Positions 20,397 through 63,602 of a stretch of 64,000 nt of DNA are shown here, one piece after another. This DNA comes from Malacoraja senta. Its lineage: Eukaryota. The stretch is from NCBI GenBank assembly GCA_038087875.1, contig CM075991.1:7504001-7568000 (forward strand), given 5' to 3'. A program made the translations under genes and the position numbers. Below the pieces are notes generated by a model. It was given only the letters and a program-made list of their open reading frames with translations. It was not told where the DNA came from and did no database searches. The first letter of the stretch is position 1, and the number at the start of each line of letters is the position of its first letter.

Positions 20397-20480
20397 CTGA
20401 AGAAGGGTCTCGACCCGAAACGTCGCCTATTCCTTCTTTCCATAGATGCTGCCTCACCCGCTGAGTTTCTCCAGCAACTT
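20397..20480 (+). mobile_element. Minimal Penelope-derived hammerhead unit inserted in a SINE
   Basis: Starts exactly at CTGAAGAAGGGTCTCGACCCGAAACGTC; flanked by TGATAGAT (20389-20396) and TGATCGAT (20481-20488). Confidence 0.7.
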
Positions 20481-20778
20481 TGATCGATGGTCAGTGTGGA
20501 CTTGATGGGCCTGATGGGCCTGTTTCCAAGTGACCTGAATAACATAACACTTAACCTGTGGCCTCCCCACTCATATATTCTGTACCATTGAATTAACTTG
20601 ATAGATTGAGTGAATAAGCAGACTGTAACGACGCATGAAGCAGTTTTATTCCACCATTCTGATGGTGGTAACTTGATGGTCACTTGGATGATGCTCAGCA
20701 GCCAACGATAGGAAAATTGCAGCCACCTTTGCATCTTCCCTTGTGGGCACTTGCTACCGGCTTTCAGAGTTCAATGTC

Positions 20779-21816
20779 TAGCAATGTTACAAAATTTTGA
20801 GATTTTAAAAATAAAGTCTGCAATTTATCCCATCAGATAAAGCATAAAAAGAAGTTTAATTTGACACCTAATTCACTTTCATATCTTCAGTATTAAAGAA
20901 GTTATGGCCATTTTCATACTCGGAAATTAGCATCTTGTTCCCTATTGCTTTTCCATTGACTTAACACAAAAGCTGTGATCGAGGACAGTTAAAAGCCCAT
21001 AGCTTTCTTAAAAATTAAGATAACTGAAAGAAATTTTCAGTTATTATAGATTGAAGCATTCTGAAACAAATATGAAACAATCTTACTTAGAAGACATGAA
21101 AGTAAAGCATATAATTAGTTAGTTACCTAATTGTAGCTAATTACAAAATTCAATTACTAGATCTAAACATCTACCAATTTCTTAAGAATAGATTAACATT
21201 TTTAAATAGCCTGTGTCCAAATAACATTCACACAATAATTCACAATATAACATAATTTTTAAATCTCATTTTCATGAATTTACAGGCCAAATGGAAGGAA
21301 TTGAATGTTTAATACCTGTAAATTAATGGGCATTTAAATCATCTTGTGAGTGAGGATTTCTGGAACACGATCTTTTGGAACGTTGATTTGCGGTGAATTT
21401 AAGCCCGTATTGGCATGAAAAATGCTGCCGTTAATTCGGGGAATAAAATCATCGTGTCGCATGAAAAAATGTGAATTAAAGGCTTCTTAAGAAGCACTTT
21501 TATACATTTAAAGAAACCACTTTCGTTTACCTGTCCCGTGTGTGAAATCCGTCCTTGTTATCGGCGTTGGCGCTTCAGGAGCTGCTTTTAAAATTACTCC
21601 AGCGCTGACATTGACGATTTAATAAAAATAAAAAATACACAAAATGCCACTAGGAACGATTCTTCAGCCAACGCTTGTACTCCAACAAAATATTAACCAG
21701 GACAAGGGAGGAGAAACCCGCGTTTTAACCCCGCCCCCCTTAAAGGTGCCAAAATCGCGCACACGGCCAGTGGCAGAATTACAGCGCGACTGAAGGTAAG
21801 TTTTGTAACATACCTA
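20779..21816. mobile_element. Non-autonomous DNA transposon, TAG...CTA termini (hAT-like, assignment uncertain)
   Basis: 16-bp TIR tagcaatgttacaaaa / ttttgtaacataccta (14/16 match); CAATGTC at 20772-20778 and 21817-21823; no transposase ORF. Confidence 0.8.
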
Positions 21817-22929
21817 CAATGTCTAATCTTGGCTTCGACAAATTTGGCCGATGCAAGACTCACAGTGCTGGAGTTAATTAGGTCAGGCAGCATCTCTGGA
21901 GATCATGGATAGGCGATGTTTCAGGTTGGGACTTTTCCTCTGATTGTATGTAATATCCAGTTCAACACAAAAAAAGTTACATTGATTGATCTGGACTTTT
22001 ACACATTTCTGGTTGTTTTTTTTAACATTTTTTGATTAATTAATTAATGATTAATTGCCGGTGTAGTGTGTTATTATATTGGCTGCAGGAACTGATATAT
22101 ATTAATACTTATTTTATTCTGTTGATTTATTTTAATATGCGAGTGCATTTGTTTTTGCATTGTACAGTAAAACCGTTTGTCCAACAAAGGATATTGCTTC
22201 ACTTCAGTAAACCCATTGCTGACCAGTTCATACATTAATATCACACATCATTACTCACCCTAATACAGATGGTCAATAATACTCCGGGTTGACTCCGCAA
22301 TAGAAAACTAACCGCAAGTAAACATCACTCGCTAATTCAGTTTAATGAAACTTTGAGGAAACCTTTGCTGAGTGTGCTGTAATCATCAAAACTTGATGCA
22401 CTTCCAATCCCTACTTTTTCTTCAAGTATTTTCCTAATGTGGTCTTCTATCCTACCTGTCAAACATACGTTGAAAAAGGGCGGCACAGTGGCACAGCGAA
22501 AGAGTTGCTGCTTAACAGTGCCAGAGACCTGGGTTCAATCCTGGCTATGGGTGCTGTCTGCATGGAGTTTGTATGTTCCACCTGTGACCCTCCCACATTC
22601 TGAAGACGTGCAGGTTTGCATGTTAATTGACTTCTGGTAAATTGTCCCTAATGTGTAGGACGATCGCTGGTTAGCGTGAACTTGGTGGGCTGAAGGGCCT
22701 GATTCCACACTGTATCTCCAAACTAAACCATTGAATGAAATGTCACTGAACACCATTCAGCTCAGCATACATTTGTCGGCATTTTAAAAGAATTACCCAA
22801 ATCCAACCAGTTCCCCATTCTCTACGCTTGTAAATGTTATCCTTTCATGTATTTATCCAATTGTCTTCTGGTAAATGTATTTTCACCAGTTCATGCCAGA
22901 TCACTAACCAAGACTGTTTTATTGTTATA

Positions 22930-23930
22930 CTAGACTAAGTGGGACCTCCCAGATTCACAAGGGAGGGCTGGTCCCCCAATGCAATATTCCACCTCTCCAC
23001 CAATTCCAATATTGGTGGCCAGTGGGGCGATGGGGGGGGACGCTTTCTGGAGCGCTAGCATGGGTGTTGTGGGTCAAGTCAAGTCAAGCACAGTGAGTGC
23101 AGGGCCAACAATCCATTTCAATCCATTTCAAGTCAAGTCAATCCACTTCATGTCAAGTCAAGTCAATCCACTTCAAGTCAAATCAAGTCAATCCTCTTCA
23201 AGTCAAGTCAATCCATTTCAAGGGCAGGCCAAACAACTCACGGCATTGTCATTTCATTTCCAATTTTGCATTGCAGTTTCAAGCACAGACAGGGCACGCC
23301 AAACAACTCATGGCATTGTCATTTCATTTTCAATTTTGCATTGCAGTTTCAAGAACAGGCCGGGCAGGCCAAACAACTCATGGTGTTGTCATTTCATTTC
23401 CAAGTTTGCATTGCAGTTTCAAGCACAGGCAGGACAGGCCAAACAACTCATGGCATTGTTATTTCATTTCCAATTTCGCATTGCAGTTTCACGCACAGGC
23501 ATGGGGCAGGCCAAACAACTTATGCCATTTTCATTAAGGGCTAACAAATCATTTATTGCAAGTACATTGCAGACTCACAGTTCAGTTGATTCACAGCTTG
23601 GAATCACAGTTGTGGCCCCTCCCTCACGATCTTCCAGAGTGACTGACTCGCATCCGGGCATCTGGGGTTTTATAGTCCTGCCCCCCGCCCAGAAGGGGTG
23701 TTACCTTGATCATGGTGATTGACAGGCGAGAGGACCAATCAGCTGATCTCAAGATTTTTTAAACACTCATAACTTTTTTATTTTTCATCGATCGGAAAAA
23801 TCCTCCGGGCAGCGGAGGAGGACTGTGAGTAAGATGGACAAAAATCATAGCGATATAGGGTAGCATTTTTTCTAAAATCAATATACAGTGCAGACAGGAA
23901 CTGGTCAAGATGAGACTTTTAGTTATATAG
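22930..23930 (-). mobile_element. Non-autonomous Helitron-like element
   Basis: Minus strand starts CTATATAACTAAAA and ends ggtcccacttagtCTAG. Inserted between A and T with no TSD; the flanks rejoin to a repeat also seen at 31143-31200. Confidence 0.7.
23074..23530. repeat. (CAAGT)n-derived microsatellite plus about 70-bp minisatellite inside the Helitron-like element
   Basis: caagtcaagtcaatcca repeats at 23074-23220; unit ggccaaacaactcatggcattgtcatttcatttccaattttgcattgcagtttcaagcacagg, four full copies plus a partial one. Confidence 0.95.
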
Positions 23931-24445: not shown

Positions 24446-25548
24446 ATTTCCAAGTGAAAATCTGTCGGGTATAACAGCCTCCTGCAGGTGGGGAAAAGTT
24501 TTCAATATTTGCATTGGTGTAAAACCTTATCACATCTCAACTCAGTGCATTTTATTCCATTTTAAACCACAGCAGCTATGCCATAGCAGCTCGAACAAGA
24601 TCTCCTAGACACTCCTATGGTGAATGATCATGATGGATTGTTTGATAATGTGGGAGATGCAGGCCAATACAACCTGACAAGGCATATTTCAAAGGATCAT
24701 TTTGTTTTATCTTTAAAATAAATACTGGATCTTCAGTAGGAATGATAATACGTCTCTCCTTCTTGTGCTTCAATTTGTTTTCAATGGTTTTCAAGACATT
24801 AGATTGAACTGATAGGATGGAGAAAGAGAGAGAATGATTTTCTACAGATTGACACAAAATGCTGGAGTTGCTCAGCGGGACAGGCAGCATCTCTGAATAG
24901 AAGGAATGGGTGACGTTTCAGTCGAGATCCTTCTTCAGACTAAGAGTCAGGCGAGAGGGAGGCCCAGAGATAAGGAAGAGTAAGGTGTGAAAACGAGACA
25001 TCAAAGGGGATGCAGTTTAGGCTTCTGGAACTCGAGACAAAGTAATTAGAGCTAAGCCTTTCCGGAGTGAAGATCGCAAACGCTCTAAATAGGGATGAAG
25101 TACCGTAGTTCAACTTTCAATCTGAGAATGATAGATTTTTGTTAAAAGTATTAAGAGATTACATTTGAACTGATGGTAGACAAAAATGCTGGAGGAACTC
25201 AGCGGGTGAGGCAGCATCTACAGAACAAAGGAATAGGTGACGTTTCAGGACGAGACCCTTATGGATGACCTTTAATGGACCCTTAAGGGTCCATAGATGC
25301 TGCCTCACCCACTGAGTTTCTCCAGCATTTTTGTCTACCTTCGATTTTTCCAGCATCTGCAGTTCTTTCTTAAACATGGGAACTGATGATTATATCAAGT
25401 TACACCAAAGAAAAGCCATGATAGCAAATGGCATAAACATGGGTGTAAATAGTTTCCCCGACTTCCTTTGTTCCCACATTTCCAACAAGATTGTATTAAA
25501 TTGAGGTGCAGATGGCCCAATGCTAACTAACACTTCAATACTTATTGT

Positions 25549-25959
25549 AATGAAATGTCCTCATTCTTCAGGGAACGGGGGTTCCCCTCCTCCACCATAG
25601 ATGAGGCTCGCACCAGGGTCTCTGCCATACCCCGCAACACTGCTCTCTCTCCCCATCCCCCCACTCACAACAAGGGCAGAGTCCCCCTAGTCCTCACCTT
25701 TCACCCCACCAGCCGTCACATACAACAAGTGATCCTCCGACAGTTTCGCCACCTCCAACGTGACCCCACCACTCGCCACATCTTCCCATCTCCCCCCATG
25801 TCTGCCTTCCGCAAAGACCGCTCCCTCCGTAACTGCCTTGTCAATTCTTCCCTTCCCTCCCATACCACCCCCTCCCCTGGTACTTTCCCTTGCAACCGCA
25901 AGAGATGCAACACTTGTCCCTTCACCCCCCCCCCCTCTACTCCATTCAAGGTCCCATCT
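25549..25959 (+). mobile_element. Penelope-like (Neptune-type) internal ORF fragment: RT C-terminus and Cys-rich linker
   Basis: MSSFFRERGFPSSTIDEA..RVPLVLTFHP..FRHLQRDP..IFPSPPMSAFRKDRSLRN.LV..GTFPCNRKRCNTCP; 16-bp direct repeat CTTCAATACTTATTGT at 25533-25548 and 25960-25975. Confidence 0.9.
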
Positions 25960-26500
25960 CTTCAATACTTATTGTCTCAGTCAAGCGCCATGTGCTACAT
26001 CTGGTCAGGATCAAAGTAAACATATTAGTATTGACCTTATAATGATCTCCCTTGTCAATGCTCATGGTGAAACAATGGATGTGCTCTTTTATAAGCGAAG
26101 GGCATTGTAGTATTTGACTTACAAAGAATGATTCTGCTGAGGCAAAGATTTCTTTAACCTGCTGTGTTTCCTGAAAGTCAACTGGTTCCTCTGCAATAAC
26201 AACCAAGGGTCATTCAATGTTCAAGGAGCCACTGAAGAGGATTTTCTGCAGATTGAATAACCAGTTTCTATTCACGGTAAGAAGGAAGGAGCAGAAGTGA
26301 AAAGCTTTCTTCCTTCTAGTTCATAATTTAGTTTATAGGATTTAAATTATAACTCATTTTTAAGTGGCGTGGAGGAGGTGGAGATTCCAGTTCAAGTCTC
26401 ACACCACCCTGACTTTGAAATCTTATCATTGTTGCATTATTGAGCTGAGACTGACTCGTGAAACTCCCAACTCCCAGACAAGATCAGTTTAACTTGGCAT

Positions 26501-30711: not shown

Positions 30712-31030
30712 TGGTGGATAGAAATGCTGGAGCGAAGGAAATAGGCAACATTTTGGGCCGATGTGAGGGTGGGGGGGGGGGGCAGGAAGAAGAAAGAAAG
30801 AGGAGGAGCCAGAGGGCTAGAGGGAGAGCTGAGAAGGGGAGGAGACAGTAAGGACTACATGAAATTAGAGAAGTCAATGTTCATACTGCTGGGGTACAAA
30901 CTGCCCAGGCGAAATATGAGGTGCTGCTCCTCCAATTTCCGGTGGTCCTCACTCTGGCCGTGGAGGAGGCCCAGGACAGAAAGGTCAGATTCGGAATGGG
31001 AGGGGGAGTTGAAGTGCTGAGTCACCGGTA
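30712..31030 (-). mobile_element. Penelope-like element 3' fragment
   Basis: Same sequence family as 50450-50730 (GIY-YIG C-terminus and 3' UTR). Confidence 0.85.
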
Positions 31031-31734
31031 TTGTTTGACAGTCTTTAAGAATAAAGATGCCATATTGCAGTCAAAAGGGAACTGGATAATTACTTGAAGA
31101 AGTTTTTAAAAAGTGGGAAATCGTGCAAGAGCGGAGAGTCAAGAGTGTTTTATTGTCATATGTCCTGAAACGGAAGAATGAAATTCTTACTTGCAGCAGC
31201 ACAACACATATGTAAACATAGTACTGGTGTTGATCTACCTGTTTTGGTCATGAAATGAGATGGAGTAGGCTGAATAGTTAAATCATTTGTAACTCTCTAA
31301 ATTTCAAGTTGTTTTATTCTTCATGTATCTTTGAATATTTGTGTGAATCATCTCTGGTAGCCTCTGCTGTTACTTTGAAGAATCATTCTACGTTAAACTG
31401 AGTTCTTAGAGTTTATATTTCATGTACCTTAATTAGACACGTCTTGCGATTTACTTTATAGACCGCAGGCATGTCTAATTCTTGCTCAAAGCTCATCACT
31501 GTTATACTGTTATGACTTTTCTCAGAATCTGTTTGAATGCATACATACGCTACAGTGGAATGGTAATCAGAAGTGAAATATCACCCCTGCTCTGGTGTGC
31601 ACCCATGAAAATAAATTAGCATAATCTCCGGAGACTCAAAAGAGATCATTTTGCAAAATCTTCCTCCCAGCACTGAAACCTTCACATTCAAAGCACATAC
31701 TCAGAATTCTAAAATATGTTTCCCCTTTAATTAC

Positions 31735-34224: not shown

Positions 34225-34688
34225 GGACATGCGCGCGTGCACACACACATACACACACACACACACACACATATGCACATGCATACACACACACACCCCA
34301 CACACACACACATACGCACCCACACACACACATACACACTCACACACACTCACACACATACACACACCCACACCCACACACGCATATACACACACGCACA
34401 CCCACACACATATAGGCATACACATACACACGCATACACACCCACACACACACATACACACGCATACACACCCACACATACACACACACCCCCACACACA
34501 CATACACATGCATACACACCCACACACACACATACACACACACACACACATACACACACACACATACATACTTACACATACACACTCACACACACACACA
34601 CATACTTACACACTCACACACACATATACATACACTTACACATACACACTCACATACACACACTCACACACGTGCACACACACACGTG

Positions 34689-34732
<44 letters not shown>

Positions 34733-35506: not shown

Positions 35507-35561
<55 letters not shown>

Positions 35562-35644
35562 ACACACATATAGGCATACACATACACACGCATACACACC
35601 CACACACACACACATACACACACACTCACCCACCCACACATACA

Positions 35645-35684
<40 letters not shown>

Positions 35685-36005: not shown

Positions 36006-36037
<32 letters not shown>

Positions 36038-36129
36038 ATACATACTTACACATACACGCACACACACCCATCCACACACACACACACACATACTTACACA
36101 CATACTTACACACATACTTACACACATAC

Positions 36130-36193
<64 letters not shown>

Positions 36194-36229: not shown

Positions 36230-36265
<36 letters not shown>

Positions 36266-39069: not shown

Positions 39070-39498
39070 TAGGTGGACAAAAATGCTGGAGAAACTCAGC
39101 GATTGAGGCAGCATCTATGGAGCGAAGAAATGGGCAACGTTTTGGGCCGAAACCCTTCTTCAGACTGATGTGAGGGTGGGGGGGGGGGGGGAGCAGAAAG
39201 GAAGAGGAGGAGCCAGGTGGCTGAGGGAGAACTGAGAAGGGGAGGAGAAAGTAAGGACTACCTGAAATTAGAGAAGTCTATGTTCATACCGCTGGGGTGC
39301 AAACTGCCCAAGCGAAGAATGAGGTGCTGCTCCTCCAATTTACGGTGGTCCTCACTCTGGCCATGGAGGAGGCCGAGGACAGCAGTGAGAGAGGAGGTCG
39401 TTAAACTGTCTTCGGAGGGAGGAGGAGAACTTCTTCAAAGTAGGCATACCTTGAGGAGATTTCGCAGTGGAGTAGACAAAGTGTTTAAGAAGGAACTG
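39070..39498 (-). mobile_element. Penelope-like element 3' fragment with pLTR and hammerhead-like core
   Basis: Antisense core caacgttttgggccgaaacccttcttcag at 39136-39163, followed by the GIY-YIG C-terminal coding region. Confidence 0.8.
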
Positions 39499-40407
39499 CC
39501 TAGTTTAGGCCACTTGCAGGCCACTGGTTCATCTTATTTCCGATGCCACCTGCATCACCAAAACAATTCCCCACCTTTGAAGTATAATCCTTGTTGCAAT
39601 GTAAAACTATAGAAGCAATTTGTACACAGCGAGCTCCCACAGCTCGCAATGTGATAATCACCATTTACTAAGTTATTGTTACGTGATGGCTCTTCAAACA
39701 TCTGTCACTGCACGTTATGAGACGCCACTAATGCTCAAACTATATAATTACCTATTGGTAACATAGTCTATGCACCAAGATTTATGAGTAATTGACTGAA
39801 GAATGAAATTAACAGGCGATAATTATCATCATTAGATGTTTCAAATCAATTGCCTAGCAATAACAACATTGTCATTTGAAGAATTAATTGATAATATCTA
39901 ATTGGCATCCTGCTTCTAATTCTCAATAAAACATGTAAGCCTTCCCTCCAAACCTGATGTCATGGTTCAGAGCTGAGGTTATAACTGATTGTGCGGCAGA
40001 ACTGAATGATATGCTAAATTTAAATTACTGCATTAGATATGCTGAGAACTTTATTGATTTCTTGCATGTTCTCTTGAAGCGTTAATCACTTCAAGGATTA
40101 TCAAAGTTATAGGCAAGCTTCTTGTACATTCTACAAGAGTAGGAATAAAATATTAGAGGCAAATTTCAACTAGGTTATTATTAATGCTGCCCTACAGACA
40201 TATGCGTTGATAAATTGTAGCTCCATACAAATTTAAATCATCTCTCCAGCTCCATTACATCTCTTTCCATTTGTCCAATTCGGTTTCTCATCTCACTTTG
40301 AGCACAATGTTTTTTGGCATGGTATAACTTACATTTTGGGGACTTTTATCAGATATTGAATCTGGCATTTCCACTATGTACAATTACATAATACTTCAGG
40401 CTAATGT

Positions 40408-40437
40408 CTGAAGAAGGGTCTCGACCCGAAACGTCAC
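40408..40437 (+). ncRNA. Minimal type I hammerhead ribozyme-like motif at the start of a 92-bp Penelope-derived unit (40408-40499)
   Basis: CUGAAGA + extra A + stem II GGGU(CUCG)ACCC + GAAA + CG + UC; unit flanked by CTAATGT at 40401-40407 and 40500-40506. Catalytic activity is not demonstrated. Confidence 0.65.
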
Positions 40438-40714
40438 CCATTCCTTCTCTCCAGAGATGCTGCCTGTCCCGCTGAGTTACTCCAGCTTTTTGTGTCTATC
40501 TAATGTTATTGATAGTTTTGTGTTTCAAATAAACTTGTTCTACTCTGATCTAATCTACTCTATGAAACGTCTAATTAAAGATAATGAACTTAAAGTGATG
40601 TGGTGTCAAATATAATATAAAATTCTGTATAAGGCAGAACGTCCGATCTTCTGTAGATGCATGCCTTCCTTAAGATAGAGGGGTTTTGGTCAACAACGGC
40701 AAATATTTATACTT

Positions 40715-41010: not shown

Positions 41011-41349
41011 AGATTACTGAATGGGGACACTAGCATTTCATCTCTGAGACTGCTACTGAAACCATCACAAAATAAATGTTCAGTTGCAGTTCAGAGATGA
41101 ATTGCCCTTAATGTCCCATTCAGAATGACCACTAACTATTTAGTGTAGTTTGGAGATCCGAAACAGGTCCTTCAGGCCCACTGTGCCCAACGATTAAACA
41201 TCTACACACACTAGGGACAATTTACAGAAGCCAATTAACCTGCAAGCCTGCACAGTTTTGGAATATGGAAGAAAACCGGAGCACCCTGAGAAAACCCACA
41301 CGGTCATGGGTAGAGAGTACAAACTCCGAACAGACTCAGTATTCTTATA

Positions 41350-41582
41350 TGTAGGAAGGAACTGCAGATGCTGATTTAAATCGAAGGTAGACACAAAATG
41401 CTGGAGTAACTCAGCGGGACAGGCAGCATCTCTGGAGAGAAGGAATGGGTGACTTTTTGGGTCAAGACCCTTCATCAGACTTCAGACTGAAGAAGGGTCT
41501 CGACCCGAAATGTCACCCATTCCTTATCTCTGGAGATGCTGCCTGTCCCGCTGCGTTACTCCAGCATGTTGTGTCTCTCTCC
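41350..41582. mobile_element. Head-to-head inverted pair of Penelope pLTR-derived repeats
   Basis: Minus copy 41350-41480 and plus copy from 41487, with the hammerhead-like cores back to back. Confidence 0.8.
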
Positions 41583-43900: not shown

Positions 43901-46286
43901 GGCACACAGTGGACAAATACTGATGATTTCAATACCTACTCAGTATCTCTATTCATTTCTTCCTGCTGCAAAATGGCACGATGGTGCAGTTGGTAGAGCT
44001 GCTGCCACATAGTGACAGAGACCCGGGTTCGAACTGACTGTGTGGGGTATTGTCTGTGTGGGGCTTGCACATTCTCCCTGTGACCGCATGGATTTCCTCC
44101 GGGTGCTCATGCTTCCTCCCACATCGCAAAGGCGTGCGGGTTTGTAAGTTTGGACGGTGCACTGAAGACCCTGTTTCCATGCTGTAAACCAGACTCTAAA
44201 CTAAACAGATCAATAACTTTCCTTCAGATCTGCCAGTTTCAACTCCGGGTAATAGCCTCTTTGTCAAATGTCTTTAAACTATCCATATAAATAACATCCA
44301 TAAAGTCTGCTCCTCTCATCAAGTCCCACAATGTCAATCAGCTTTGCCAGGCACTGCCTACCATTTAAAAATGCAGGCTGCCTCTCCAATCAAGCACAAA
44401 CCCTGAAGGTATTTTTAATTCTCTCTAATCCCAATTATAATCTCTTGTCATTTTTTTGATTCTGTCCAGTTCACTGGCCTAAACGTTCTCAGTTTCCCTC
44501 TTAAGGAGCAGACTTGTCACAAACATCATTTATGTTCCACCGTCCTGTGGTCATGGTCAAATGTAAAATGGGGCTTCAGATTTTCCTCTTCGATTTACTT
44601 GTGTGTATTGAACATCTCGCTAAGATTGCCTTTCACTCATCTCCTTACACTTTGAGTTTTATAGCTCCGCCATGTTACTCAACAAAATTGACCGGTCTTT
44701 TATGCTTTTTCTACAGCCTTTGAACCTCTGTGGCCTGAGTTGTTTCTGACCCTCACCTGTAACACTGTAAAAAGCCGATCTTTCAATTCTGACAGACCAG
44801 AGGTAGACACAAAGTGCTGGAGTAACTCAACCAGTCCGGCAGCATCTCTGGAGAAAAAGGATGGGTGACGTTTGAGGTCGGGACCCTTTCTCTAGAGATG
44901 TTGTTTGACCTGCTGAGTTACTCCAGCACTTTGTATCTAGCACCTGCAGTTCTTTGTTTCTACACTCTGACAGACCAAGTTCTGTTTGCCAAAACATTGA
45001 CAACACTGTGCAACATTAAAATGGTGGCCATAAGTTGCTTGGCAGAAGCTTAAAAGTTGTTATCTCATAATTCAGTGAAGTTATTAAGACCACACCATAT
45101 GCGGCATATCATATTTCTACTCTACCTCAAGTAAAGATAACACAGAGAAACTAGTACTGACTTCTATCAGCATGGTTTTGAGTCCTTTTAATGCAAGTCA
45201 GTCACACGGTCTGTAGGGATGCTGCTGTTATCTGAGAAATGCTTTGCCTATCAGTCAAGTGCATTGATGCTGTCTTTGCTGATTTATGTTTCAGATATAT
45301 GGGAGCCTCTTTGCCATTAACAATCCAGTTGAAAGAAGTATGCCTGCCCCTCAGTAGCCAAGAGCCATGAATAAGGTTGAAACCCCTATTCCAATTTGTA
45401 ACTCTTGCAATGCAATCTTATAGCTGTTTTTTATTTTCTATTTAATCTTTCCATCTACCTCTCCCTCACCGTGGATTGGTACCATGTTGAGACTTATCAG
45501 CCTTGGGAATTTGACCCAAATGAGTCCCATCAGTGAGGCTGAGAAACTGTTCCAACAGTTTCACACAAAGGGTGGTGGATGTATGGAACAAGCTGCCAGA
45601 TGAGGTCATTGAGCCAGGGACTATCCCAACATTTAAGAAGCAATTAGACAGGTACATGGATAGGATAGGTTTGGAGGGATATGGACCAAATGTTGGCAGG
45701 TGGGACTAGTGTAGATGGCCAGTATGGGCAGGTTGGGCCGAAGGGCCTGTTTCCACTCTAGGACTCTAGGACTCTACAGGTCAACACTGCACGGCCCACT
45801 CTTAAGTTCACCTGACCATGATATATCCTTCAAGCAGTCATTTGTAAAATAAGCTGAATGCAGAAAATCTGGTTACTCTCCCTCTGCTTTGTCCAGAGGC
45901 TACTGGCATTCCTTGGTTTCAATGAGCTCATTTCACAGCAACTGTGAATTGGCAGAACCTTTCTGACCTCAGCGGCTCATGTTAAATGAGGTTTCCAGTG
46001 ATGTGGGAGTAATTACGCTAACAGGCATGTATATAAAACAGAAATGTCACAGACAGGTCTAGAAAATAATGTTATAAGTCTGTAGCCCCTGCATTCCATC
46101 TCTCCCCCACTCCCCCACCTTAGTCGTCCTACTGATTCCACTGTTTACATCACGGTATTCCTCTTGTTGTCACCTCTTCCCCAGCCAACAATGGGCCATT
46201 GTGGGCTCCACCTTCCTTGCCTTTTTGTCCCCACCACCCCCTCTACTTTCAGTCTGAAGAAGGGTTCCGCCTCGAAATGTCACCCA

Positions 46287-50317: not shown

Positions 50318-50935
50318 GTGTTAAAGAAGGAACTGCAGATGCTGGAAAATCGAAGGTACACAAAAATGCTGGAGAAACTCAGAGCGTGCAGCAGCATCTA
50401 TGCAGCGAAGGAAATAGGCAACGTTTCGGGCCGAAACCCGTCTTCAGAAAGATAGGGGGTGGGGAGAAGAAAGGAAAAAGGCAGAGGAGGAGCCCGAGGG
50501 CTGAGGGATGGGAGGAGACAACCAGAGGGCTGAGGAAGGGGAGGAGACAGCAAGGGCTAGCAAAATTGGGAGAATTCAATGTTCATGCCCCCAGGATGCA
50601 GACTGCCCAAGCGGAATATGAGGTGCATTTCCTCCAATTTCCGGTGTTGCTCGCTGTGGCCATGGAGGAGACCCAGGACAGAGAGGTTGGATACGGAATG
50701 GGAGGGGGAGTTGAAGTGCTGAGCCACCGGGAGGTCAGGTTGGTTATTGCGGACCGACCGGAGGTGTTCGGCGAAACGATCGCCAAGCCTCCGCTTGGTC
50801 TCACCGATGTAGATCAGCTGACATCTAGAGCAGCGGATGCAATAGATGAGGTTGGAGGAGATGCAGGTGAACCTCTGTCGCACCTGGAACGACTGCTTGG
50901 GTCCTTGAATGGAGTCGAGGGGGGAGGTGAAGGGA
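50318..50935 (-). mobile_element. Penelope-like element 3' part encoding a GIY-YIG endonuclease plus pLTR
   Basis: ORF 50557-50883 FTCISSNLIYCIRCSRCQLIYIGETKRRLGDRFAEH..PVAQHFN..HPGGMN; degenerate hammerhead-like core at 50420-50447. Confidence 0.92.
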
Positions 50936-53103
50936 CTGCTCCTGTGTCTTACACCTGCTTAACCCTGCTCCTGTGTCTTACAGTCAAATGGGTAGATAGA
51001 AATAAAACAAATGGGCAGATATTACCAAGGGGGGTGGGGGGGGTCATTCCTGAGAGATTGTGAGCAAAAATTCAGACCTTAGCAAAAACCAGCCAAATGA
51101 TGCCTGTGTTCTGGCTATGATTCACTCCTCTGCTGAAAGGTCTTGGTTATCTGATGCCTGAGGTGTTGGGAGCTGGTGATCTTCGGATCTAGTTACTGGA
51201 CATTTAGAGGAAGTGACTTGCGGAAATGGACAATGATCTGCGTTGTCTCTACACGATTTGACCAGCAGAAGAATAAAAGACCAAATAAATGAGTTGATTT
51301 AGGGGTGAAGTTTTTTCAAGAGGGAGAAGCGCAGTATATTTGCTTTCAATTCCCTGTAAAACATTCTAATTAACTTTATCCTTCTGTTTTTAATCTATTT
51401 CTTCTCCTGGTCTTGTTTTATTTTGTTTTAATATTGTAAATGCTGATAACCACGTCAAGAGAGATGTCTTAAAATAGGCACTCAGATTGGGGGGGGGGGG
51501 GTGCAGAATAATAAGGTCCCAAGGTTATCACGTTATTTGCTGAGTGTGCATCTGAGGTAGAATATAGCCCCAATTCCCACAGAGCTTAGTGCCAGCAACA
51601 GAAGCTTCGAATATTAACCCATTATCTCCTAAACCCAACTGAATGCCATTCTCTGCTGCCTCTGCAGTTTCTCTATGCTACACACTTCAAAATCAACTCA
51701 AGTTTAACAGAATAAATCCAAATAATCAGATAACCTATGTGCTGTCTGACCCGCTGGGTTACTGCAGCTTTTTGTATCTATCTTCGCTTTAAACCAGCAT
51801 CTGAAGAAGGGTCTCCACCCGAAACGTCACTCATTCCTTCTTTCCAGAGATGCTGCCTGTCCCGCTGAGTTACTCCTGCATTTTGTGTCTATCTGCAGTT
51901 CTTTCCAACATAACCTATATATTTACTCTTTGTGGAGTCTGTTGGAAATGCTAGCATTTATTTCCCATCCTTCACTGTCTCTGAACTGAATCGGTAATTG
52001 AAAATCAACAAAACCACTGGGTATTGAGTCACATCTCAGCTCATGTAAGAATGCAAATTCCCATCTACTGGTGGCTATCGGTGAATTAGACTTCTTGCTC
52101 GGACAATCCAATAGTTTCATGAATATTGTTACTTGAGACAGCCTTTTCTTTTTAAGACAGCATCTCTGGATGGTAGGAATGGGTGATGTTTTGGGTCGAG
52201 ACCCTTCTTCAGACTGAGAGTCAGGAGAGAGGGAGACACAGAGATAAGGAAGTGTAAAGTGTGAAAACAAGATCAAAAGAGATGTAGATCAAGGAGAAGG
52301 CAATATTAGAGATTCTTAATGGAATGGAATCAGATATATAGAAATATAACTGCAAACATGTCCTTCCCTCATCATTTGGCAGCATTGCACAATTCATTGC
52401 TTAGTTGCCAAATATACAATTTATTTTTGCACACTATGTTCCAATTGTCTGTTGAAAATCATTTGCTTTTTCTAAATCGTATTATTCCAAACAAAAAAGT
52501 GAATGAATACAGAAATATGTTGCTAAATCATGACAGAATGAGACATATTGAACTGGCAGTGCATTCTCAATAGACTGCACCATGTTCCCTGTATGCGGAT
52601 GAGATTAAAAGACAGCAGAGTGTCCAGTCTAGTTTCAAAATACTAATAGTAACCAACAGGGCGGTGTGGGAGAACAGAGAAATCTGGACTATCTCAACCT
52701 GAAGATGACTTCAAGAGGAACACAGAGCATTCACAAGTTTGCAAGTTCACAAGTTATAGGAATAGAATTAGGCCATTCAGCCCATCGAGTCTACTCCGCC
52801 ATTCAATCATGGCTGATCTCTGCCTCCCAATCCCATTTTCCTGCCCTCACCCATAACCCTTCACACCCCATTCTAATAGTAAGATTAAACGAGAACTTAC
52901 CAGTTTGAAGTTTGATCTTTATTTTATGAGGAGTTACGTTGGTGATTACGTGAAGAAGACCCGTCAGGGCGCATGCAAGTCAATCTTCAAAGCAGTGGTA
53001 TGAAATCACAGACAACACCATAATTGAAGTAACATATTAAGATGATCAACATGAGAACTACCATTATGACCTTTTTTCTATGAGAGAGGGTTGGGCGTGG
53101 CGG

Positions 53104-53429: not shown

Positions 53430-54390
53430 TTAAACAATAGCAACAGCACTCAATATTGAATTGGCAAACAGCCCTCCATCGGCAATTGGCCGATGGTAGT
53501 ATTGCTGAAACACAAGTTCATTTTTCCAACCTGCGGCTTTTAATATATGGTCGATGGGAACATCCATCGCCCTGACCGCGGATGTTGCTACTGCGCTAGT
53601 GGAATGAGATGTAAACACATAAATGTTAATTCCTGCCTGAACCAACTCTTGCTTTAACCACCTTGAGATAGTCTGAACTGCCACTCTTTTATGTTGGCTT
53701 CTTGTAACTGACTAATAATCCTGTTTCTTCTTGTCTTAAAGCCCTTGTTGGCTTCAATGTAATGTAACAAATGTGTCCTTACACATAAACATGGAGCTGT
53801 AGGATATGCTGAGAACACAATCTTAAATCCTGTCACACCTGGCCTGCTTTGGTTGAGCAGGTCAGAAATATAAAACAGAACATTCTCTGTAGTCACTTCC
53901 ATTCTATCTAACTGAAGTTTTTGCAAAGTCTGCACTCTCTGTACTGACACCAATGCCATTAGCATAGCCAATTTCATGGTTAATTTTAACAAAGTTATAG
54001 ACGTGACAGGGACCCAATGACGAAGCATGTTAAGAACAACGCAGATTACCATATACCTAGGCTTAGGCGGTTTGGAATTAAAGATTCCTTTCATCAACCT
54101 AGATATGAGAGGGCGAGATCCTATACTTTGTGGCTGTGTACCTATTACAAGATATGCCGACAAAGCACTTCTAGCTGTATTGATAGCAGTATAGCTAAGA
54201 CCCTCATCATAATAAAGTGTAGATAAAACTCTAACACATTTTCAATAACTACAGTATCATATTGAATATTCTTTTGAACACAATATTGTTCCCATTTTTT
54301 TTACGTCATATACTGCTTTTGAGTACTCTTTCTCCAGGCTGCAGTGAGTATATCCACCGTTGGCCTAGAAAGTCCTCGACCAATGTAAGG
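53430..54390 (-). pseudogene. DIRS tyrosine recombinase (frameshifted)
   Basis: N-terminal GLSRPTVDILTAAWRKSTQKQY..GLSYTAINTARSALSAYL; catalytic region LMALVSVQRV, FTSHSTS (HxxR arginine replaced), AAGWKN..FQQYY. Confidence 0.9.
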
Positions 54391-54807: not shown

Positions 54808-56117
54808 TAGAATAGAATAGAATAGAAACTTTATTTGCCACACGACCAGGGTTGGTGGTAATTGGGTTCGGTACATGATGGTACTGCTTTAGCACATTAA
54901 CACTAACAACAATAATAATAAAGCACATCACAAATCACAAATCTCACCAACAATACATAGTGCAAAAGAACAGACAAAAACCATAGACAAGACACTGTAT
55001 ACATCAAAGTCAAAAAGTTATTGGAGGGAATTAAGTGTTCTTATTGCTGAGGGGAAGAAACTGTTTTTAAAACGGGTGGATTTTGTAGCAAGTGACCTAA
55101 GGCGCCTCCCTGAAGGGAGAGACTGGAAAAGGTGGTTTGCTGGATGGGAGGGGTCCGAGATGATCTTTGTTGCCCGTTTTGAGGTACGTTGGAGGTAAAT
55201 GGAATGGATTGAGGGGAGGGGAGAGTTGATGATCCTAGAGGCCTTGGAGACAATGCGCTGTATTCTGTGTAGTGAGTGACTGTCAGTGTTTCCGTACCAG
55301 ACTGTGATTGAGGAGGTGATGATGCTTTCAATGATGGATTGATAGAAGCGTACCAGGAGGTGTTTGTGGACTCTGAACTTCTTGAGCTGTCTGAGGAAGT
55401 ATAGGCGTTGTTGTCCTTTCTTAATGATGTGGTCAGCATTGATGTGCCATTTTAGATTATTGCAGATATAGGTGCCCAGGAACTTAAATAAGTTCGTGGA
55501 GGTTATGGGATGGGAGTTGACATGGACCGCGGGTTTGAGGTTTTGTTTGCGTCTGAAATCTATGATGGTTTCTAAGGTTTTTGAGGTGTTAAGCTGGAGG
55601 TTGTTTTCTGCGCACCATTTGACTGCGCTGTCCACTGTTTGATGGTATTGTGATTCATTGTTGTCTGAGATGAGGCCAATTATTGTCATGTCATCTGCAT
55701 ATTTGAACATTTTAACTGAGCTGTATTGGGATGTGAGGTTGTTGGTGTAAAGTGAGAAGAGCTGAGGTGACAGAACGCACCCTTGAGGGGCTCCTGTATT
55801 GATAGTCAGAGGGCTGGAGAGTTTTTCACCCACCTTGACTCTTTGTTGTCTGTTTGTAAGAAAATGTAAAATCCAATGGCACATGGCTAGGTGAATGCCC
55901 ATGTCCAACAGTTTATTGTAGAGTTTAATTGGGTGTATAGTATTAAAGGCCGAGTTAAAACCTATAAACAGGATGCGTGCATAAGTGTTCGGTGATTCCA
56001 AATGATGTAGGGAGTAGTGAAGAGCTAGGTTGATAGCATCCTCCACAGACCGGTTGGCGCTGTATGCAAATTGAAAAGGGTCCATGATGGGGACAGTGTA
56101 TGTTTTCAGATGGGTGT
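54808..56117 (-). mobile_element. 5'-truncated Rex1/Babar LINE nested in the DIRS
   Basis: AATAAA plus (TTCTA)n tail at 54808-54835; RT ORF 55018-56085; no clear TSD. Confidence 0.9.
55018..56085 (-). pseudogene. Rex1/Babar reverse transcriptase, uninterrupted 355-aa frame, 5'-truncated
   Basis: DPFQFAY, LFIGFNSAFNTI (D>G at the first catalytic Asp), GAPQGCVLSP, YADD, QRLYFLRQLKKF, LPSGRR. Confidence 0.92.
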
Positions 56118-56119
56118 AG

Positions 56120-57402
56120 GGTACTACATTAAGTTTCCCTGGCAGATAGATAGCTCCAATCCAAATCTCTCTATCCCTACTCCAGGTCCAATTGTATTTG
56201 CCAACCTGTCACATGATAACGATTTGATTCCACCCATGTGATTCATATCAGCAACTGCTGTCGTGTTGTCTATTTTGCACTGCACATGCAAACTAGTTTT
56301 GTTAGTGCCATAAGCCTTGAGTCCATAAAATACTCTTGGTTAATTCCCCATGTTTGCAGAAGCAATGTCCATCTGTCTCCACAGCTGGATCTTGTATCAG
56401 TAGCACCCTACCCAAGTGCTCTGACATCTGTCTGCAAAATCATGGAAGCTTGGTCCAATAACACTTTGGAACTACTAGTGGACACATGCTGAATCCACCA
56501 TTGTACATCAGCAACAGCCTCTATTGATAGAAGCATAGGTCTATTATAATGACCCAATGTATCCTCAATGCTTGTTCCTTTGACCTTTGTAATTGTCGAT
56601 AATAAAGTGGCCACTGTTAGAAATGCTGCCAGCATTTCCCCAGCAGACTCGTCACCTGGCTAATTGAAAGCTGTGTGTCAGCAATTATCTTGATACAGCT
56701 CTTAATTAGCTCTACCCTTTTTTGCCTGGGCAAGGTCACAATGATGTTGATTAAGTCTATTGTGAACCCAACTAGTCAATTTGTGTCACAGGTATTAATT
56801 TAGATTCTCTGGATAGCTTATGAAGCCCAATTTTTAAAAAAAAGTGATTTTTACCAACTGCCACTGATGCTTCAGCTGTTTCCTTTGATTGTCCTACAAT
56901 CAAGATATTATCTAGTTAAGCCATGAGCACATGCCCTTGACTTCTCATCATGCCTAGAATAGGTTTTAACAACTTTGTAATTACTCTAGGAGCTGAAGAC
57001 AATGCATTGTATTGCCATAATTGCCCCATCCAGCTGAATTTTAAATCTTCTATCCTGCAAATGAACAGACACTGAATAATACGCATCTTTAAGATCTCCT
57101 CAAACGTTTCCATCTTTAAATGTCTATACCGTACAAAAAAGTTTAAGACTAGTCAGGTCCAGTATAATTCTGCATCCCCCATCCTTTTTTGGTCTGGGAA
57201 AGATATTGGACACAAACTGATGGCTTTGGTAAACTGCCTTAGCAATTACACCCTTATTACATAAGCTTGCAAGTTCCACCTGAACTTCCAATTGTTCAGT
57301 GATACTGAAGTCAAACTCCTTTTTGGAACATGTTTGCATGGGTAAATCAGAATTTGCATTAAGCGTTATTCGATACCCTTCAATAACCTTCAGTATAAAC
57401 AT
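56120..57402 (-). pseudogene. DIRS reverse transcriptase and RNase H (decayed)
   Basis: FVSNIFPRPKKDGGCRIILDL, SSAPRVITKLLKP, *LDN at the YLDD position, QTDVRALG, IDNTTAVA, IYLPGKLNVV. Confidence 0.88.
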
Positions 57403-59547: not shown

Positions 59548-60101
59548 AGGCTGGAGCCGGTGACGACGAACGACGTGACGAGTGTGGAGAGAGGCCGGGA
59601 GGAGAGGCGAGGGAACCGGGGTCTGGCCTACCTCGAGGTCGGCTGCGGGAGGCGCCCCAGGGGAACAGGGGTGGATGGGCAAGGTGAGGGACGTCGGTTT
59701 GTCGGTCAACCCGCACGTCCAAGGGCAGGCGACGGCTGGAGGCCTGCAGCAGCCTGGGGCTTGCCTGGAACGGGCACCGCTCATAATACCTAGAGAGCAG
59801 AGCGGAGTGAAAATGGCGCCAAAACATGTTCCCTCATGCACGTGGTATCAGTTGACTATTTCTGAGCAATTTGCTAATCGGGGATGTGCTTAGATGTTGG
59901 AATACTCCATTGAAAATAGACACTTAATGCTGGAGTAACTCAGCGGAACAGGCAGCCTCTCTGGATAGAATAAATGGGTGACATTTTGGGTCGAGACCAT
60001 TTCTTCAGACAGAATACTCTACTGGACTGTTTGTAAGAAAATAATTTCACCAAGTGTTTTCATTTTGCACATGTGATAATGAAAGCAACATTGATTATTG
60101 A
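59548..60101 (+). mobile_element. GC-rich repeat with Rex1-like 3' tail, interrupted by a Penelope repeat (about 59914-60010)
   Basis: CpG-rich body, 3' end aatttcac..gcacatgtgataatgaaagcaacattgattattga; gaatactc duplicated around the Penelope insert. Confidence 0.5.
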
Positions 60102-61703
60102 ATGTGGACTACCCAGGCAAAACACACTTGGGCACATGGTGAACATGAAAGCCACACAGAGACAGCAGTGGAGGTCAGGATCAAATCCGAGTCGCTGCTT
60201 ATTGTCAAGAGTCTTTACAGATCGGAACAGCAAATAGATGCACAGTTTACTCCCGCAATGAGCGAGGGGAAGATTTATGAAATGGTGACCAGGCTGCTGA
60301 TCAAGCAGAGTGTTATTTTTTTGAATGTATTCTGCATTGATATAAATTGATGCTGTTTTTTCCTGAGCTAAGGGTTGTACGTATGCAACTGTTTGTTTAC
60401 TCCGAATGCTTTATTACATTAGTTTTAATCCCAGCATCGAGAAATGTTAAAAGTACATTTTTAAATAATATTTTCAATGGTGGAACATTATTGCAAATTT
60501 TTTTTTTCCCCGTAAAAGCAATTTGTGAATCTGCCACTTGCAACAACAGCATCAAGGTGCATTTATTGATAGGCAAAAATCAATTGCTCCCGCTTGTGAA
60601 ATAGAGAGCAAACAAAGAGGGCTTTGGTTTAGGAAACAGCCCTCTGCCTCACATATCATTATGCCCATGTCTGTTTGTGGGATGTAATTAAGGCTTTTGC
60701 AGAAATACTGGGTGAATTTATGAGAATGAAACCTTCTGACTGCGAGTCTTTGTGGGTCATTTGCAAGTTAATTAAAAACTTCCCCTCGCCTCGTGAATAT
60801 TTCCCAGTATGTATTTTTCTCCCTTTTCCTCCTTCAAACTAATATTGATTTGTTGCCTGCTTTTCCCTGAGATTCTGACTCACAGTGGAACGCATGCAAG
60901 CAAATTAAATGCCACTGCATTTATTAGTCAAAGCCTGGCAAGGTGCAAATGAAAGAAATGTAATTTGCTCATCTCTGCGGATGTTTCTGCTCCGTGAATC
61001 TGGTCAGTAATGCCGGCGGGAGGCAACAGGACCTGGGACGATGACATCCAAACATCTGTCGTCAATTTTCTATGCATTACATATCAAGATTCCATCTTGT
61101 GGCATGGTCCCATAACAATCATAGCATCCTCTCTAAGAGATATATATTCTTTACATATTCCTGCAGGACACAGCGGGAGCTTCCGTCTTCAGGAAAGCTG
61201 ATCAAGAAATTCTCAGGAGTGATTCCTTGGACTCACAACCTTCTTAGGTGAAGTGCTGGAGTAACTCAACCAGTCAGGCAGCTTCTCTAGAGAACACATG
61301 TGGGTGATGTTTCGGGCCACGACTCTGCTTCAGACCTAAAATGTCACCAATAGTATCTCCAGAGATGCTGCCTGGACTGCTACGTTACTCCAGGACTTTG
61401 TGTCTTTTGTTGTGTAAACCACCATCTGCAGTTGTTTGTGCCTCAACTTTCTTACTCAGTAGGGTGAGCTCTTTACCCATTTATTAACGTGACCTGACAT
61501 TTGGGCTCATACACAGGTTTTTCTTTCTTTTGAATGAAGTTGATGAGCAAAAGTGCAACTACATTGCATTGCCCAGGATGTTGCTCCAGGGTCTAACTAA
61601 ACAGTCGAGCATTCTTGAGAGACTATGTGGTAGGGAACATAGTGACTGGTTGCTCAGTTCGGCAACTCGAATGTCCAGGAACAAAGGAGATGACAGAGTG
61701 TGG

Positions 61704-61903
61704 NNNNNNNNNNNNNNNNNNNNNNNNNNNNNNNNNNNNNNNNNNNNNNNNNNNNNNNNNNNNNNNNNNNNNNNNNNNNNNNNNNNNNNNNNNNNNNNNN
61801 NNNNNNNNNNNNNNNNNNNNNNNNNNNNNNNNNNNNNNNNNNNNNNNNNNNNNNNNNNNNNNNNNNNNNNNNNNNNNNNNNNNNNNNNNNNNNNNNNNNN
61901 NNN
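61704..61903. other. Assembly gap (200 N)
   Basis: Run of exactly 200 N. Confidence 1.
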
Positions 61904-61914
61904 GACCGCCCTTT

Positions 61915-62170
61915 ACTTGTTGGTAGGATGGTTCAGTTGCCTGATAACAGCTGGGAAGAAATTGTCTCTGAACCTGTCGGTATGCATTTTCACACTTCTG
62001 TACCTCTTATCTGATGGGGGAAGGGAGACGAGGGAGTGAGATGCGACCTTGATTATGCTGGTGGCCTTGCTGAGGCAGCGTGAAGTGTTGATGGAGCCAA
62101 TGGAAGGGAGGTTGATTTATGTGATGGTCTGGGCTGCGTCCACAATTCTCTGCAACTTCTTGCAGTTTGG
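61915..62170 (-). mobile_element. Rex1/Babar LINE 3' fragment
   Basis: Reverse complement resembles 46795-46985 (ttcttcccagctgttatcaggcaactgaac corresponds to FFPAVIRQLN). Confidence 0.7.
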
Positions 62171-63490
62171 ATGGGGCTGTGACACATCCCTCCCTATCCA
62201 CATTCTCCAGAGATGCTGCCTCTCTACTCCAGCACTATGTGTCTTTTTCTAATTAAAAAGTGGTGTTGATCTCGATATATTATGCACCAAAGTGATGCCT
62301 CAGAGATAACATTTTATTTTGCCAAACTCACTGGCGGCATCAATGATGTCAATTTACATTGTATTACATTTACCGTAGTAGTAATCAGATGTTGTGTAAG
62401 AGAGAGAGAAAGAAACGTAGATATCCAAACTGTTGGCAATATCAAGAGCTGTTGGACTATATGGGCCTGAAAGATTTCATCCACAAGACAAAGCCCTCAC
62501 CTATTATTCAATTCCCTGTAGACAGGATTTCATAGTTCTTTTCTGTGAGCTGTAGAATTCAGTTGTTTAAATCTCAAGCTGTGCTCGGGGTAATGCAATC
62601 AAGTTGCTCTGCCAAGGCAGGTCAGGAGAATCTCTCCAAGGTCATGAGAGTGGTGATTGAATGTCTTCTTCCTTGGCGACATAAATTTCTTAACAGACGT
62701 TCCCTCGCACTGATTCTGTTTCGAATTGAACTGAGCTACTCCCTGCCTGGCAAATGGATGGCGGGGCGATAGGACACCTTTTGTGAGGACGCAGATTAAA
62801 ACACGATCAGGATTTGATGGGGAGAAAAAGAATGCTCTCGGGCTTCGAACTGTGCATTTGAAGAGAAGCACAAAGGGAAATGTTTGAACCAAGGGTTTTG
62901 TCTGATCATTTTGCTGACGGGTGAGCTCTCACAGGGTGACGCTTCCCCCTCCAGTTCTCAAAGCACAACAACATTGTTGACAATCAAACTACAGAGAGAG
63001 TCGGCACAGATCTCTTTGTTGTTGTGCGACCAGGCAAGCAATCCACCTGAGTAAGACATCAAAGACAGCAGAGACGTTGGGAAATGAATGTTGCAACATC
63101 GGGTTGTCTATGTCAGCTGGATGTACTCGAATAGCACAAAGGTGAAATGATGCTTTGGGTTGTCAAGGTAACATTGACGATGATATCGTCCTGATGGGTT
63201 GATCATTCCGGCCTTTTTATTTTCCACCATAAGCCTGATGATTGGCAGAGCTTTCTTCAGGCCAAATGGATTCCATGCTTTTCTTGTAGGAAGAAATATA
63301 TAGACCATATTTCCATAGTGCTTATACTGTGCTGCAAATTTCTGTTGTTCGAAACTTGAAACTCTGCTTTGGGCAATGCAACATGGATGCCCTATCAAGG
63401 ACAAGAAGATGGCAATTACATTTCATCTTTGAAATAAAGCACAGGATACCCGAAGAATGGAAAAGAAGGAGCAACAAGCAAGAAGTAATG

Positions 63491-63602
63491 TACAGAAATG
63501 AACTGCCGTCTGAAGAAGGGTTCCGACCCGAAACGTCACCCATCCTTTTTCTCCAGGGATGCTGCCCGACCCGCTGAGTTACTCCAGCACTGAGTCCATC
63601 CT
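63491..63602 (+). mobile_element. 112-bp Penelope-derived hammerhead unit with 16-bp TSD
   Basis: Core CTGAAGAAGGGTTCCGACCCGAAACGTC at 63510; CAAGCAAGAAGTAATG at 63475-63490 and 63603-63618. Confidence 0.8.

What the first reader, a model, noticed from the sequence alone, without database searches (positions are those of the whole stretch)
20397..63602. 84-112 bp 'ribozyme-only' units inserted with their own target-site duplications
Seen: four short inserts, each a hammerhead-like core plus about 60 nt of tail, bounded by direct repeats: 16358-16457 (9 bp), 20397-20480 (8 bp, one mismatch), 40408-40499 (7 bp) and 63491-63602 (16 bp). Two start exactly at the CTGA of the core. No ORF or Pol III box is present. 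Inference: a very small non-autonomous, retrozyme-like unit mobilised by Penelope RT/GIY-YIG, possibly a distinct family rather than random truncations. The exact 5' boundary is blurred by microhomology with the TSD.
Basis: partly seen in the sequence, partly recalled or inferred. Interest (0 to 1): 0.7.

Follow-up and report, generated by a model that had tools for sequence, protein, structure and literature searches.

The report
Mini-insertions of Penelope retroelement ends
These short inserts are real jumping-gene copies, but they are cut-down ends of ordinary Penelope-like retroelements in a skate-like genome rather than a family of their own, and many begin just before the ribozyme motif, which may mark where the element's RNA starts.

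Summary
The four inserts and their flanking repeats are real. They are 4 of 45 copies of one module in the window: the minimal-hammerhead (HHR) end of Neptune-type Penelope-like elements (PLEs). They are not one family. They fall in three subfamily clades, three of them next to a copy with long upstream sequence, two of which reach the GIY-YIG ORF. One is an inverted insertion. Duplications also flank 6 of 8 inverted loci. 3' ends fall at two sites (about +92 and +128 from the core), matching the published PLE 'tail' and internal RT start sites. The retrozyme reading fails: ends do not sit at the cleavage site. One part holds: 5' ends are not uniform. 16 of 26 copies that reach the core stop at -7..+1 (1.3 expected). 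Best reading, inferred and not shown: RT starts internally in the 5' copy of the PLE RNA and runs off its start. RT fall-off at the upstream pyrimidine tract is the rival. This scan noted the same pile-up on two other genomes. No RNA data or whole genome were available.

The parts
16358..16457 (+). Named unit, subfamily B: starts at -6, HHR core at 16365, ends at proximal site (+92); 9-bp TSD
   Evidence: (93.6% to long copy 50447)
20397..20480 (+). Named unit, B-type: starts at -1/+1, ends about +84; 8-bp TSD with one mismatch; inserted in a SINE-like host repeat
   Evidence: (95.0% to long copy 17754)
40408..40499 (+). Named unit, subfamily A: starts at -2..+1, ends +92; 7-bp TSD; its 5' junction is also seen in contigs of three related organisms
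63491..63602 (+). Named unit, subfamily C: probable inverted distal-tail tip (63491-63506) joined to a direct copy (core at 63510, end about +92); 16-bp TSD
   Evidence: (92.9% to long copy 15164)
59908..60011 (-).
15273..15373 (+). Further core-edge copy (start about -7) with a 9-bp repeat carrying one mismatch
51800..51894 (+). Core-edge unit inside an older tail (5-bp shared motif); nested insertion or tandem template jump
50319..50937 (-). Long copy: GIY-YIG end of the ORF, pyrimidine-rich pLTR, HHR, full tail (+128)
   Evidence: (PF01541, E 8.8e-05)
39071..39500 (-). Long B copy: tail end plus a piece of element body (39500-39420), ORF end, pLTR, HHR, short tail
17446..17846 (.). Inverted insertion: long-tail arm (-) plus ORF end, pLTR, HHR and short tail (+); 14-bp TSD with one mismatch
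25176..25379 (.). Inverted insertion, arms start +7 and +42; 9-bp TSD
41349..41578 (.). Inverted insertion, both arms start at the core edge (-3, -7); 14-bp TSD with one mismatch
44800..44963 (.). Inverted insertion, arms start +4 and +36; 12-bp exact TSD (14 with one mismatch)
61247..61443 (.). Inverted insertion, arms start -2 and +12; 11-bp TSD with one mismatch
25471..25917 (+). PLE ORF fragment with the Cys linker (CxxxxCxxC) that precedes GIY-YIG: Neptune-type

Best explanation
The units are retrotransposition products of ordinary endonuclease-bearing, Neptune-type Penelope-like elements, made by at least three subfamilies. SHOWN: identity with the end module of long PLE copies, TSDs, two preferred 3' ends, and a pile-up of 5' ends at -7..+1. 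FROM THE LITERATURE: GIY-YIG nicks the target and RT starts inside the RNA at two sites 30-40 nt apart, downstream of the HHR, which sets the 3' ends. HHR cleavage is not needed. INFERRED: the protein needs RNA reaching well past these start sites into the ORF body. So the competent start site is often the one in the 5' copy of the transcript. RT then runs about 90-130 nt to the RNA's 5' end and the short cDNA is integrated as it is, like a strong-stop product. The pile-up would then mark the transcription start, at an initiator-like TCAGT shared at -5..-1 by all three subfamilies. Longer, inner-start and inverted copies come from the same machinery.
For: 45 copies, 0 in the reversed control. 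Long copies run into a GIY-YIG ORF whose closest named relatives are skate and ray proteins. 3' ends: 23 of 45 at +80..100, 17 at +125..135, 5 elsewhere. In Anolis Poseidon RT starts 111-118 nt into an ORF that begins at HHR stem II (about +119..126 on my scale), RNA to ORF +172 is required, and HHR mutants still insert (PMC11167929). The element body continues past the +128 end (high depth at 39435-39489 and tail-to-39499 joints). 5' hazard 0.110/nt at -7..+1 against 0.009 elsewhere; 0 of 20,000 constant-hazard simulations reach 16 in any 8-nt window; still 8 against 1.0 expected after dropping inverted arms and doubtful calls. Core-edge copies lack the pyrimidine tract upstream (fraction 0.20-0.70 against 0.77-0.93 in long copies), so they are not long copies of an unseen subfamily.
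Against: No RNA evidence for a start site was obtained. Starts are spread over 8 nt, and four reach -6 or -7 or further (15280, 16365, 41487, perhaps 16861), beyond an initiator at -3. Six or seven stop at -2, short of it. In D. virilis Penelope the start lies 46 nt upstream of a 75-nt intron that ends at helix I, not at the HHR. Two of the -2 starts (7327, 61333) can be explained by junction microhomology with the other arm. The in vitro data come from the Poseidon clade, not Neptune. Starts were hand-curated on one window.
Confidence: 0.5

Rival explanations
1. Same PLE origin, but the RNA continues upstream and RT falls off at a roadblock: the edge of HHR helix I or the C/U-rich tract just upstream, perhaps protein-bound. 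The units are then biased 5' truncations.
For: Every long copy has a pyrimidine tract directly upstream of -7. Helix I's 5' strand is -2/-1. The pile-up is 8 nt broad and 10 of 26 copies pass it.
Against: A structure would be expected to stall RT on entry (its 3' side), not after it has been copied. The upstream tracts differ between subfamilies, yet all three pile up at the same place.
Confidence: 0.3
2. The conserved pyrimidine tract plus CAG at -4..-2 is a splice acceptor, and spliced RNAs lose pLTR homology at -1/-2.
For: The pattern is seen directly in all subfamilies. In D. virilis the intron ends at the 5' end of helix I (PMC4209133). An exon-end G would give apparent starts at -2.
Against: In TSD-flanked direct units at most 1 foreign letter lies between TSD and element (16358, 20397, 40408, 60008), so no upstream exon was copied. 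16358 keeps bases upstream of the AG.
Confidence: 0.09
3. A distinct, very small non-autonomous family with its own master copy.
For: TSD-flanked units of similar size recur. Head-to-tail joints from the tail back to -2 occur genome-wide (59-68 contigs per run). Tree support is weak (2 of 21 branches starred).
Against: The four named units sit in three clades, three of them sister to a long copy; label clustering equals shuffles. Ends vary. No Pol III box. TSDs occur on 6 of 8 inverted loci.
Confidence: 0.07
4. A non-LTR retrozyme monomer copied from an HHR-processed linear or circular RNA.
For: A type I minimal HHR is present. Vertebrate non-LTR retrozymes derive from pLTRs and leave monomers (10.64898/2026.07.22.740005). 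Some tandem joints exist.
Against: The cleavage site (+28/+29) lies inside every named unit. Only 3 of 45 starts are at +27..+31. No circular permutation, and Tandem Repeats Finder reports no array of this unit among its 18 rows. Helix I is only 2 bp and no pair changes on both sides.
Confidence: 0.03

Closest known systems
5'-truncated and inverted insertions of EN+ Penelope-like elements (Neptune; also Penelope/Poseidon)
   Same: GIY-YIG ORF end, pLTR, minimal HHR, optional 30-40 nt tail on one arm only, head-to-head inversions, TSDs of variable length (PMC3846280, PMC8557442: passages)
   Different: The passages read describe truncation as frequent but name no 5' hotspot at the HHR edge; here 16 of 26 copies that reach the core stop within 8 nt.
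Poseidon of Anolis carolinensis (PAc), internal RT initiation (PMC11167929)
   Same: Two internal RT start sites define genomic 3' ends; similar distance from the HHR; HHR cleavage dispensable
   Different: Different clade; the text read does not analyse 5' ends of short genomic copies; no ATG at stem II here.
Single minimal HHRs of metazoan PLEs (PMC4209133)
   Same: Core, extra base before helix II, palindromic zero-loop helix III, short helix I; most motifs are single and ascribed to truncated PLEs
   Different: Their boundaries and TSDs were not mapped in the parts read; helix II is 4 bp and helix I 2 bp here.
Metazoan non-LTR retrozymes (PMC7229834; 10.64898/2026.07.22.740005)
   Same: Non-coding, type I HHR, pLTR-related, can carry TSDs
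   Different: Retrozymes are tandem repeats processed at the HHR into linear and circular monomers; these units are solitary and span the cleavage site.

Membership tests
EN+ Penelope-like element (Neptune type) | C-terminal GIY-YIG endonuclease directly upstream of the pLTR | tested here: met
   PF01541 on 50560-50937; tblastn hits upstream of copies 17754, 39163, 50447 and of the core-deleted copy near 30760
EN+ Penelope-like element (Neptune type) | Cys-rich linker between RT and EN (Neptune/Nematis) | tested here: met
   Seen in 25531-26016 and in homologues P0001, P0004, P0020; definition from PMC8557442 passage. No clade tree was built.
EN+ Penelope-like element (Neptune type) | PLE-type RT in the same ORF | tested here: inconclusive
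   No full element in the window; homologue P0020 joins RVT_1 and GIY-YIG
EN+ Penelope-like element (Neptune type) | Optional 30-40 nt 3' tail, often on one arm only | tested here: met
   Two 3' clusters; 6 of 6 informative inverted loci have one long and one short arm, 2 of 8 not informative
EN+ Penelope-like element (Neptune type) | Inverted 5' pieces and variable TSDs | tested here: met
   8 inverted loci, 6 with adjacent TSD
Minimal type I HHR of PLEs | Core, helix II, palindromic helix III, cleavage triplet | tested here: met
   Pattern parse in 4 of 4 named units; 12 pattern-intact cores in the window. No hammerhead match in Rfam. No two-sided covariation.
Minimal type I HHR of PLEs | Self-cleavage activity | not testable with these tools
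   Needs an in vitro assay; monomer MFE folds do not form the HHR
Non-LTR retrozyme | Tandem units, each with an HHR | tested here: not met
   Named units are solitary; no array; a minority of tandem joints genome-wide
Non-LTR retrozyme | Unit ends set by HHR cleavage, or circular permutation | tested here: not met
   Cleavage site internal; 3 of 45 starts near it
Non-LTR retrozyme | Monomeric linear and circular RNA | not testable with these tools
   No RNA run could be laid
Distinct SINE-like family | Monophyly of short copies apart from the autonomous partner | tested here: not met
   8 changes against 7.5 shuffled on 24 rows; weak branch support
Distinct SINE-like family | Internal Pol III promoter | tested here: not met
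   No A or B box match in 4 of 4 units, recalled patterns

The most novel reading that the evidence does not exclude
PLEs routinely integrate a strong-stop-like cDNA: RT starts internally near the 5' end of its own mRNA and runs off the cap, so the commonest PLE fossil in these genomes is a 90-130 bp record of both the transcription start and the RT start sites. Any pLTR with a working promoter could then seed SINE-like copies without a master family, and a jump of this short cDNA could build the tandem pLTR.
Probability: 0.35. Interest if true: 0.65.

Novelty: new variant of a known kind. Interest (0 to 1): 0.38.

Why it matters
The elements themselves are a known kind. What is left is a measurable, unexplained 5' hotspot. 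If it marks the RNA start, it supplies the missing second boundary of the PLE reverse-transcription product, explains why single minimal hammerheads are so numerous in vertebrate genomes, and gives a direct prediction for one CAGE or RACE experiment. It also warns that short TSD-flanked HHR repeats should not be annotated as retrozymes or SINEs by default.

Tried and rejected
No whole genome is held, so the genome-wide histogram could not be built. Rfam: 0 matches at gathering on the window; only two chance matches around 40408. No RNA holder listed among 24 runs. Empty orthologous site for 40408: not found. Contigs of three relatives run from the flank 23 letters into the unit, under the tool's 31-letter bridging rule, and none of the 15 joints shown (of 1943) skips it. 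Loose-end and depth tables show 24 of 3050 rows, on a reference that lacks upstream pLTR, and depth is no copy number; used only as weak support. The first all-against-all extension was confused by neighbouring copies and dropped; the strict extension under-called long copies, so starts were curated by hand. The 6-bp repeat at 18611 was rejected as a TSD: empty paralogues show both copies are native to the host repeat. Paralogous empty sites were found for 3 of 13 loci tried (20397, 18611, 51801). Covariation gave no support for the HHR helices beyond conservation. No adjacent TSD was found for 9 of 9 simple long copies (boundaries uncertain; 50447 has a repeat about 20 nt off). Supplements of PMC11167929: 3 text files searched, no hits; its figures S1-S2 are not visible and may bear on 5' ends. 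Supplements of the bioRxiv preprint were not seen.
Full report
Coordinates below are relative to the first base of the CTGA core (+1); the predicted cleavage site is +28/+29.

Observation. The four inserts and their direct repeats are as described. A profile of the module finds 45 copies in 63,400 non-N bases and none in the reversed window. Merging seven inverted pairs, leaving out the upstream tail at 51690 and adding one tail-only piece gives 38 loci. Direct repeats adjacent to both ends occur at 11 of 38 loci against 0.57 expected from swapped flanks, and at 8 of 34 without the four named loci (a looser test agrees). By class: 6 of 8 inverted, 4 of 11 core-edge, 1 of 10 inner-start, 0 of 9 simple long copies. 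The 20397 repeat is weak alone, but the unit sits in a SINE-like repeat whose empty copy at 38949-39004 has the motif once. Unit 63491 starts with about 16 nt that read as an inverted tip of the distal tail, so it belongs with the inverted class.

What the module is. Ten of the 45 copies continue upstream through a pyrimidine-rich stretch; three of them reach the end of a GIY-YIG ORF. The closest named homologues are from skates, rays and sharks, one homologue joins RT and GIY-YIG, and a Cys-rich linker lies before the endonuclease. This points to Neptune-type PLEs by the definition quoted in PMC8557442 (passages); I built no clade tree. The core parses as a minimal type I hammerhead like those of PMC4209133 (parts 1-2 of 4 read). 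Rfam gives no hammerhead match, and the helices show only one-sided changes, so activity is unproven.

Not a separate family. The named units match long copies at 93.6% (16358 to 50447), 95.0% (20397 to 17754) and 92.9% (63491 to 15164); 40408 is closer to other short copies (up to 97.6%) than to long ones (90.2%). On a tree of 24 copies (15 core-edge, 9 long; 7327 and 46254 left out as too short) they fall in three subfamily clades, each holding both kinds: 8 label changes against 7.5 in shuffles. Support is weak (2 of 21 branches starred), so this excludes a single young master better than it excludes several.

3' ends. 23 of 45 copies end at +80..100, 17 at +125..135 and 5 elsewhere. This is the optional 30-40 nt tail of PLEs (PMC3846280, PMC8557442, passages). 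In all 6 informative inverted loci one arm is long and one short (P about 0.014). In Anolis Poseidon the two tail ends are internal RT start sites, 111-118 nt into an ORF that begins at stem II, the RNA must reach ORF +172, and HHR mutants insert normally (PMC11167929, parts 1-2 of 4 read). Here too the element goes on past +128: the piece 39500-39420 follows a tail end, is high-depth in all four runs, and is joined to tail sequence in contigs of two runs.

5' ends. Starts were curated by hand. Sixteen of the 26 copies that reach the core stop at -7..+1: 0.110 stops per nt against 0.009 elsewhere, 1.3 expected, and no 8-nt window reached 16 in 20,000 simulations. Dropping five inverted arms gives 11 against 1.15; dropping three doubtful calls as well gives 8 against 1.04. 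These copies lack the upstream pyrimidine tract, so they are not long copies of unseen subfamilies. Only 3 of 45 start at +27..+31, near what the background rate gives.

Public contigs. One call laid four runs on 39050-40680. Each run put 337,000-403,000 contigs on the stretch. Among the rows shown, 2,628-3,462 contigs per run leave the A unit at -2 into mostly unrelated sequence (agreement 0.33-0.35), 718-908 at -1 in three runs and 923 at +1 in one. That reference lacks upstream pLTR, collapsed repeats are under-counted, and only 24 of 3050 rows were shown, so this is consistent with the pile-up but is no histogram. Head-to-head joints near the core edge and tail-to-core tandem joints are among the 15 of 1943 joints shown. 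The 40408 insertion appears shared by three related organisms (23 letters into the unit, below the 31-letter rule), so no empty site was found.

Mechanism. Most likely (0.5): the PLE protein binds its RNA across the tail and into the ORF start, nicks the target, starts RT at +92 or +128 in the 5' copy of the transcript, and runs off the RNA's 5' end. The shared TCAGT at -5..-1 fits an initiator (consensus recalled, not from a call). Against: no RNA data; starts spread over 8 nt on both sides of -3; D. virilis Penelope starts 46 nt upstream of an intron that ends at helix I (PMC2377424, passages). Rival (0.3): RT fall-off at the helix I edge or pyrimidine tract. A splice acceptor at the same place (0.09) is disfavoured because TSD-flanked direct units hold no foreign exon. 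A distinct family (0.07) and a retrozyme (0.03) fail their tests. Retrozymes are tandem and HHR-processed (PMC7229834, passages; 10.64898/2026.07.22.740005, parts 1-3 of 5 read). PMC8969392 (passages) gives the standard PLE architecture.

Novelty. The insertion types are known. I found no description of a 5' hotspot at the HHR edge in eight searches of the held library or in the passages read; subscription papers, repeat databases and unseen supplements may hold it. This scan had already noted the same pile-up on two other genomes (e1-7858714, e1-7858061). Those are unchecked AI notes. I listed a transcription start among my options before reading them, and they leaned me towards it. The link to initiation in the 5' copy is my inference from PMC11167929.

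Verdict: real feature, known element kind, no separate family, one testable mechanistic lead. Interest 0.38.

Noticed in passing
window inverted loci 17446, 25176, 41349, 44800, 61247, 63491 against direct loci 415, 15273, 16358, 20397, 40408, 59908: TSDs of inverted insertions are longer (9-16 bp, median 14) than those of direct ones (7-10 bp); P = 0.012 on 6 against 6. May reflect priming from both nicked strands.
   Followed up: partly
window 7327, 44888, 61333: Inverted junctions overlap by short microhomologies between the core edge and helix II or the +36..+44 stretch. Each arm holds sequence the other lacks, so both must have been copied from RNA.
   Followed up: partly
window 46598 (+), 59324 (-), 62193 (+): Three copies start at +29 or +30, at the predicted cleavage site; not above background here.
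   Followed up: partly
window 39500-39420 (-): Piece of element body that follows the distal tail end; holds a donor-like AAG/GTATG motif, so HHR plus tail might form a short exon. One copy only.
   Followed up: no
window 30728-31050 (-): Long B copy with GIY-YIG end and pLTR whose HHR core is partly deleted.
   Followed up: no
window 51738-51894 (+): Tail directly followed by a core-edge unit through a 5-nt shared motif; tail-to-core joints also occur in public contigs.
   Followed up: partly
units 20397, 40408, 63491: Monomer MFE folds pair the core's 5' strand with about +35..+50, an alternative hairpin that would block the HHR fold.
   Followed up: no
window 4737-6885 (-), 55018-56208 (-), 53654-54241 (-): Other mobile-element ORFs: two RT fragments (the first CR1-like, label recalled) and one that looks like a tyrosine-recombinase fragment (by eye).
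   Followed up: no
window 34240-36343, 23221-23535: 2.1-kb degenerate CA array and a 70-bp tandem repeat.
   Followed up: no
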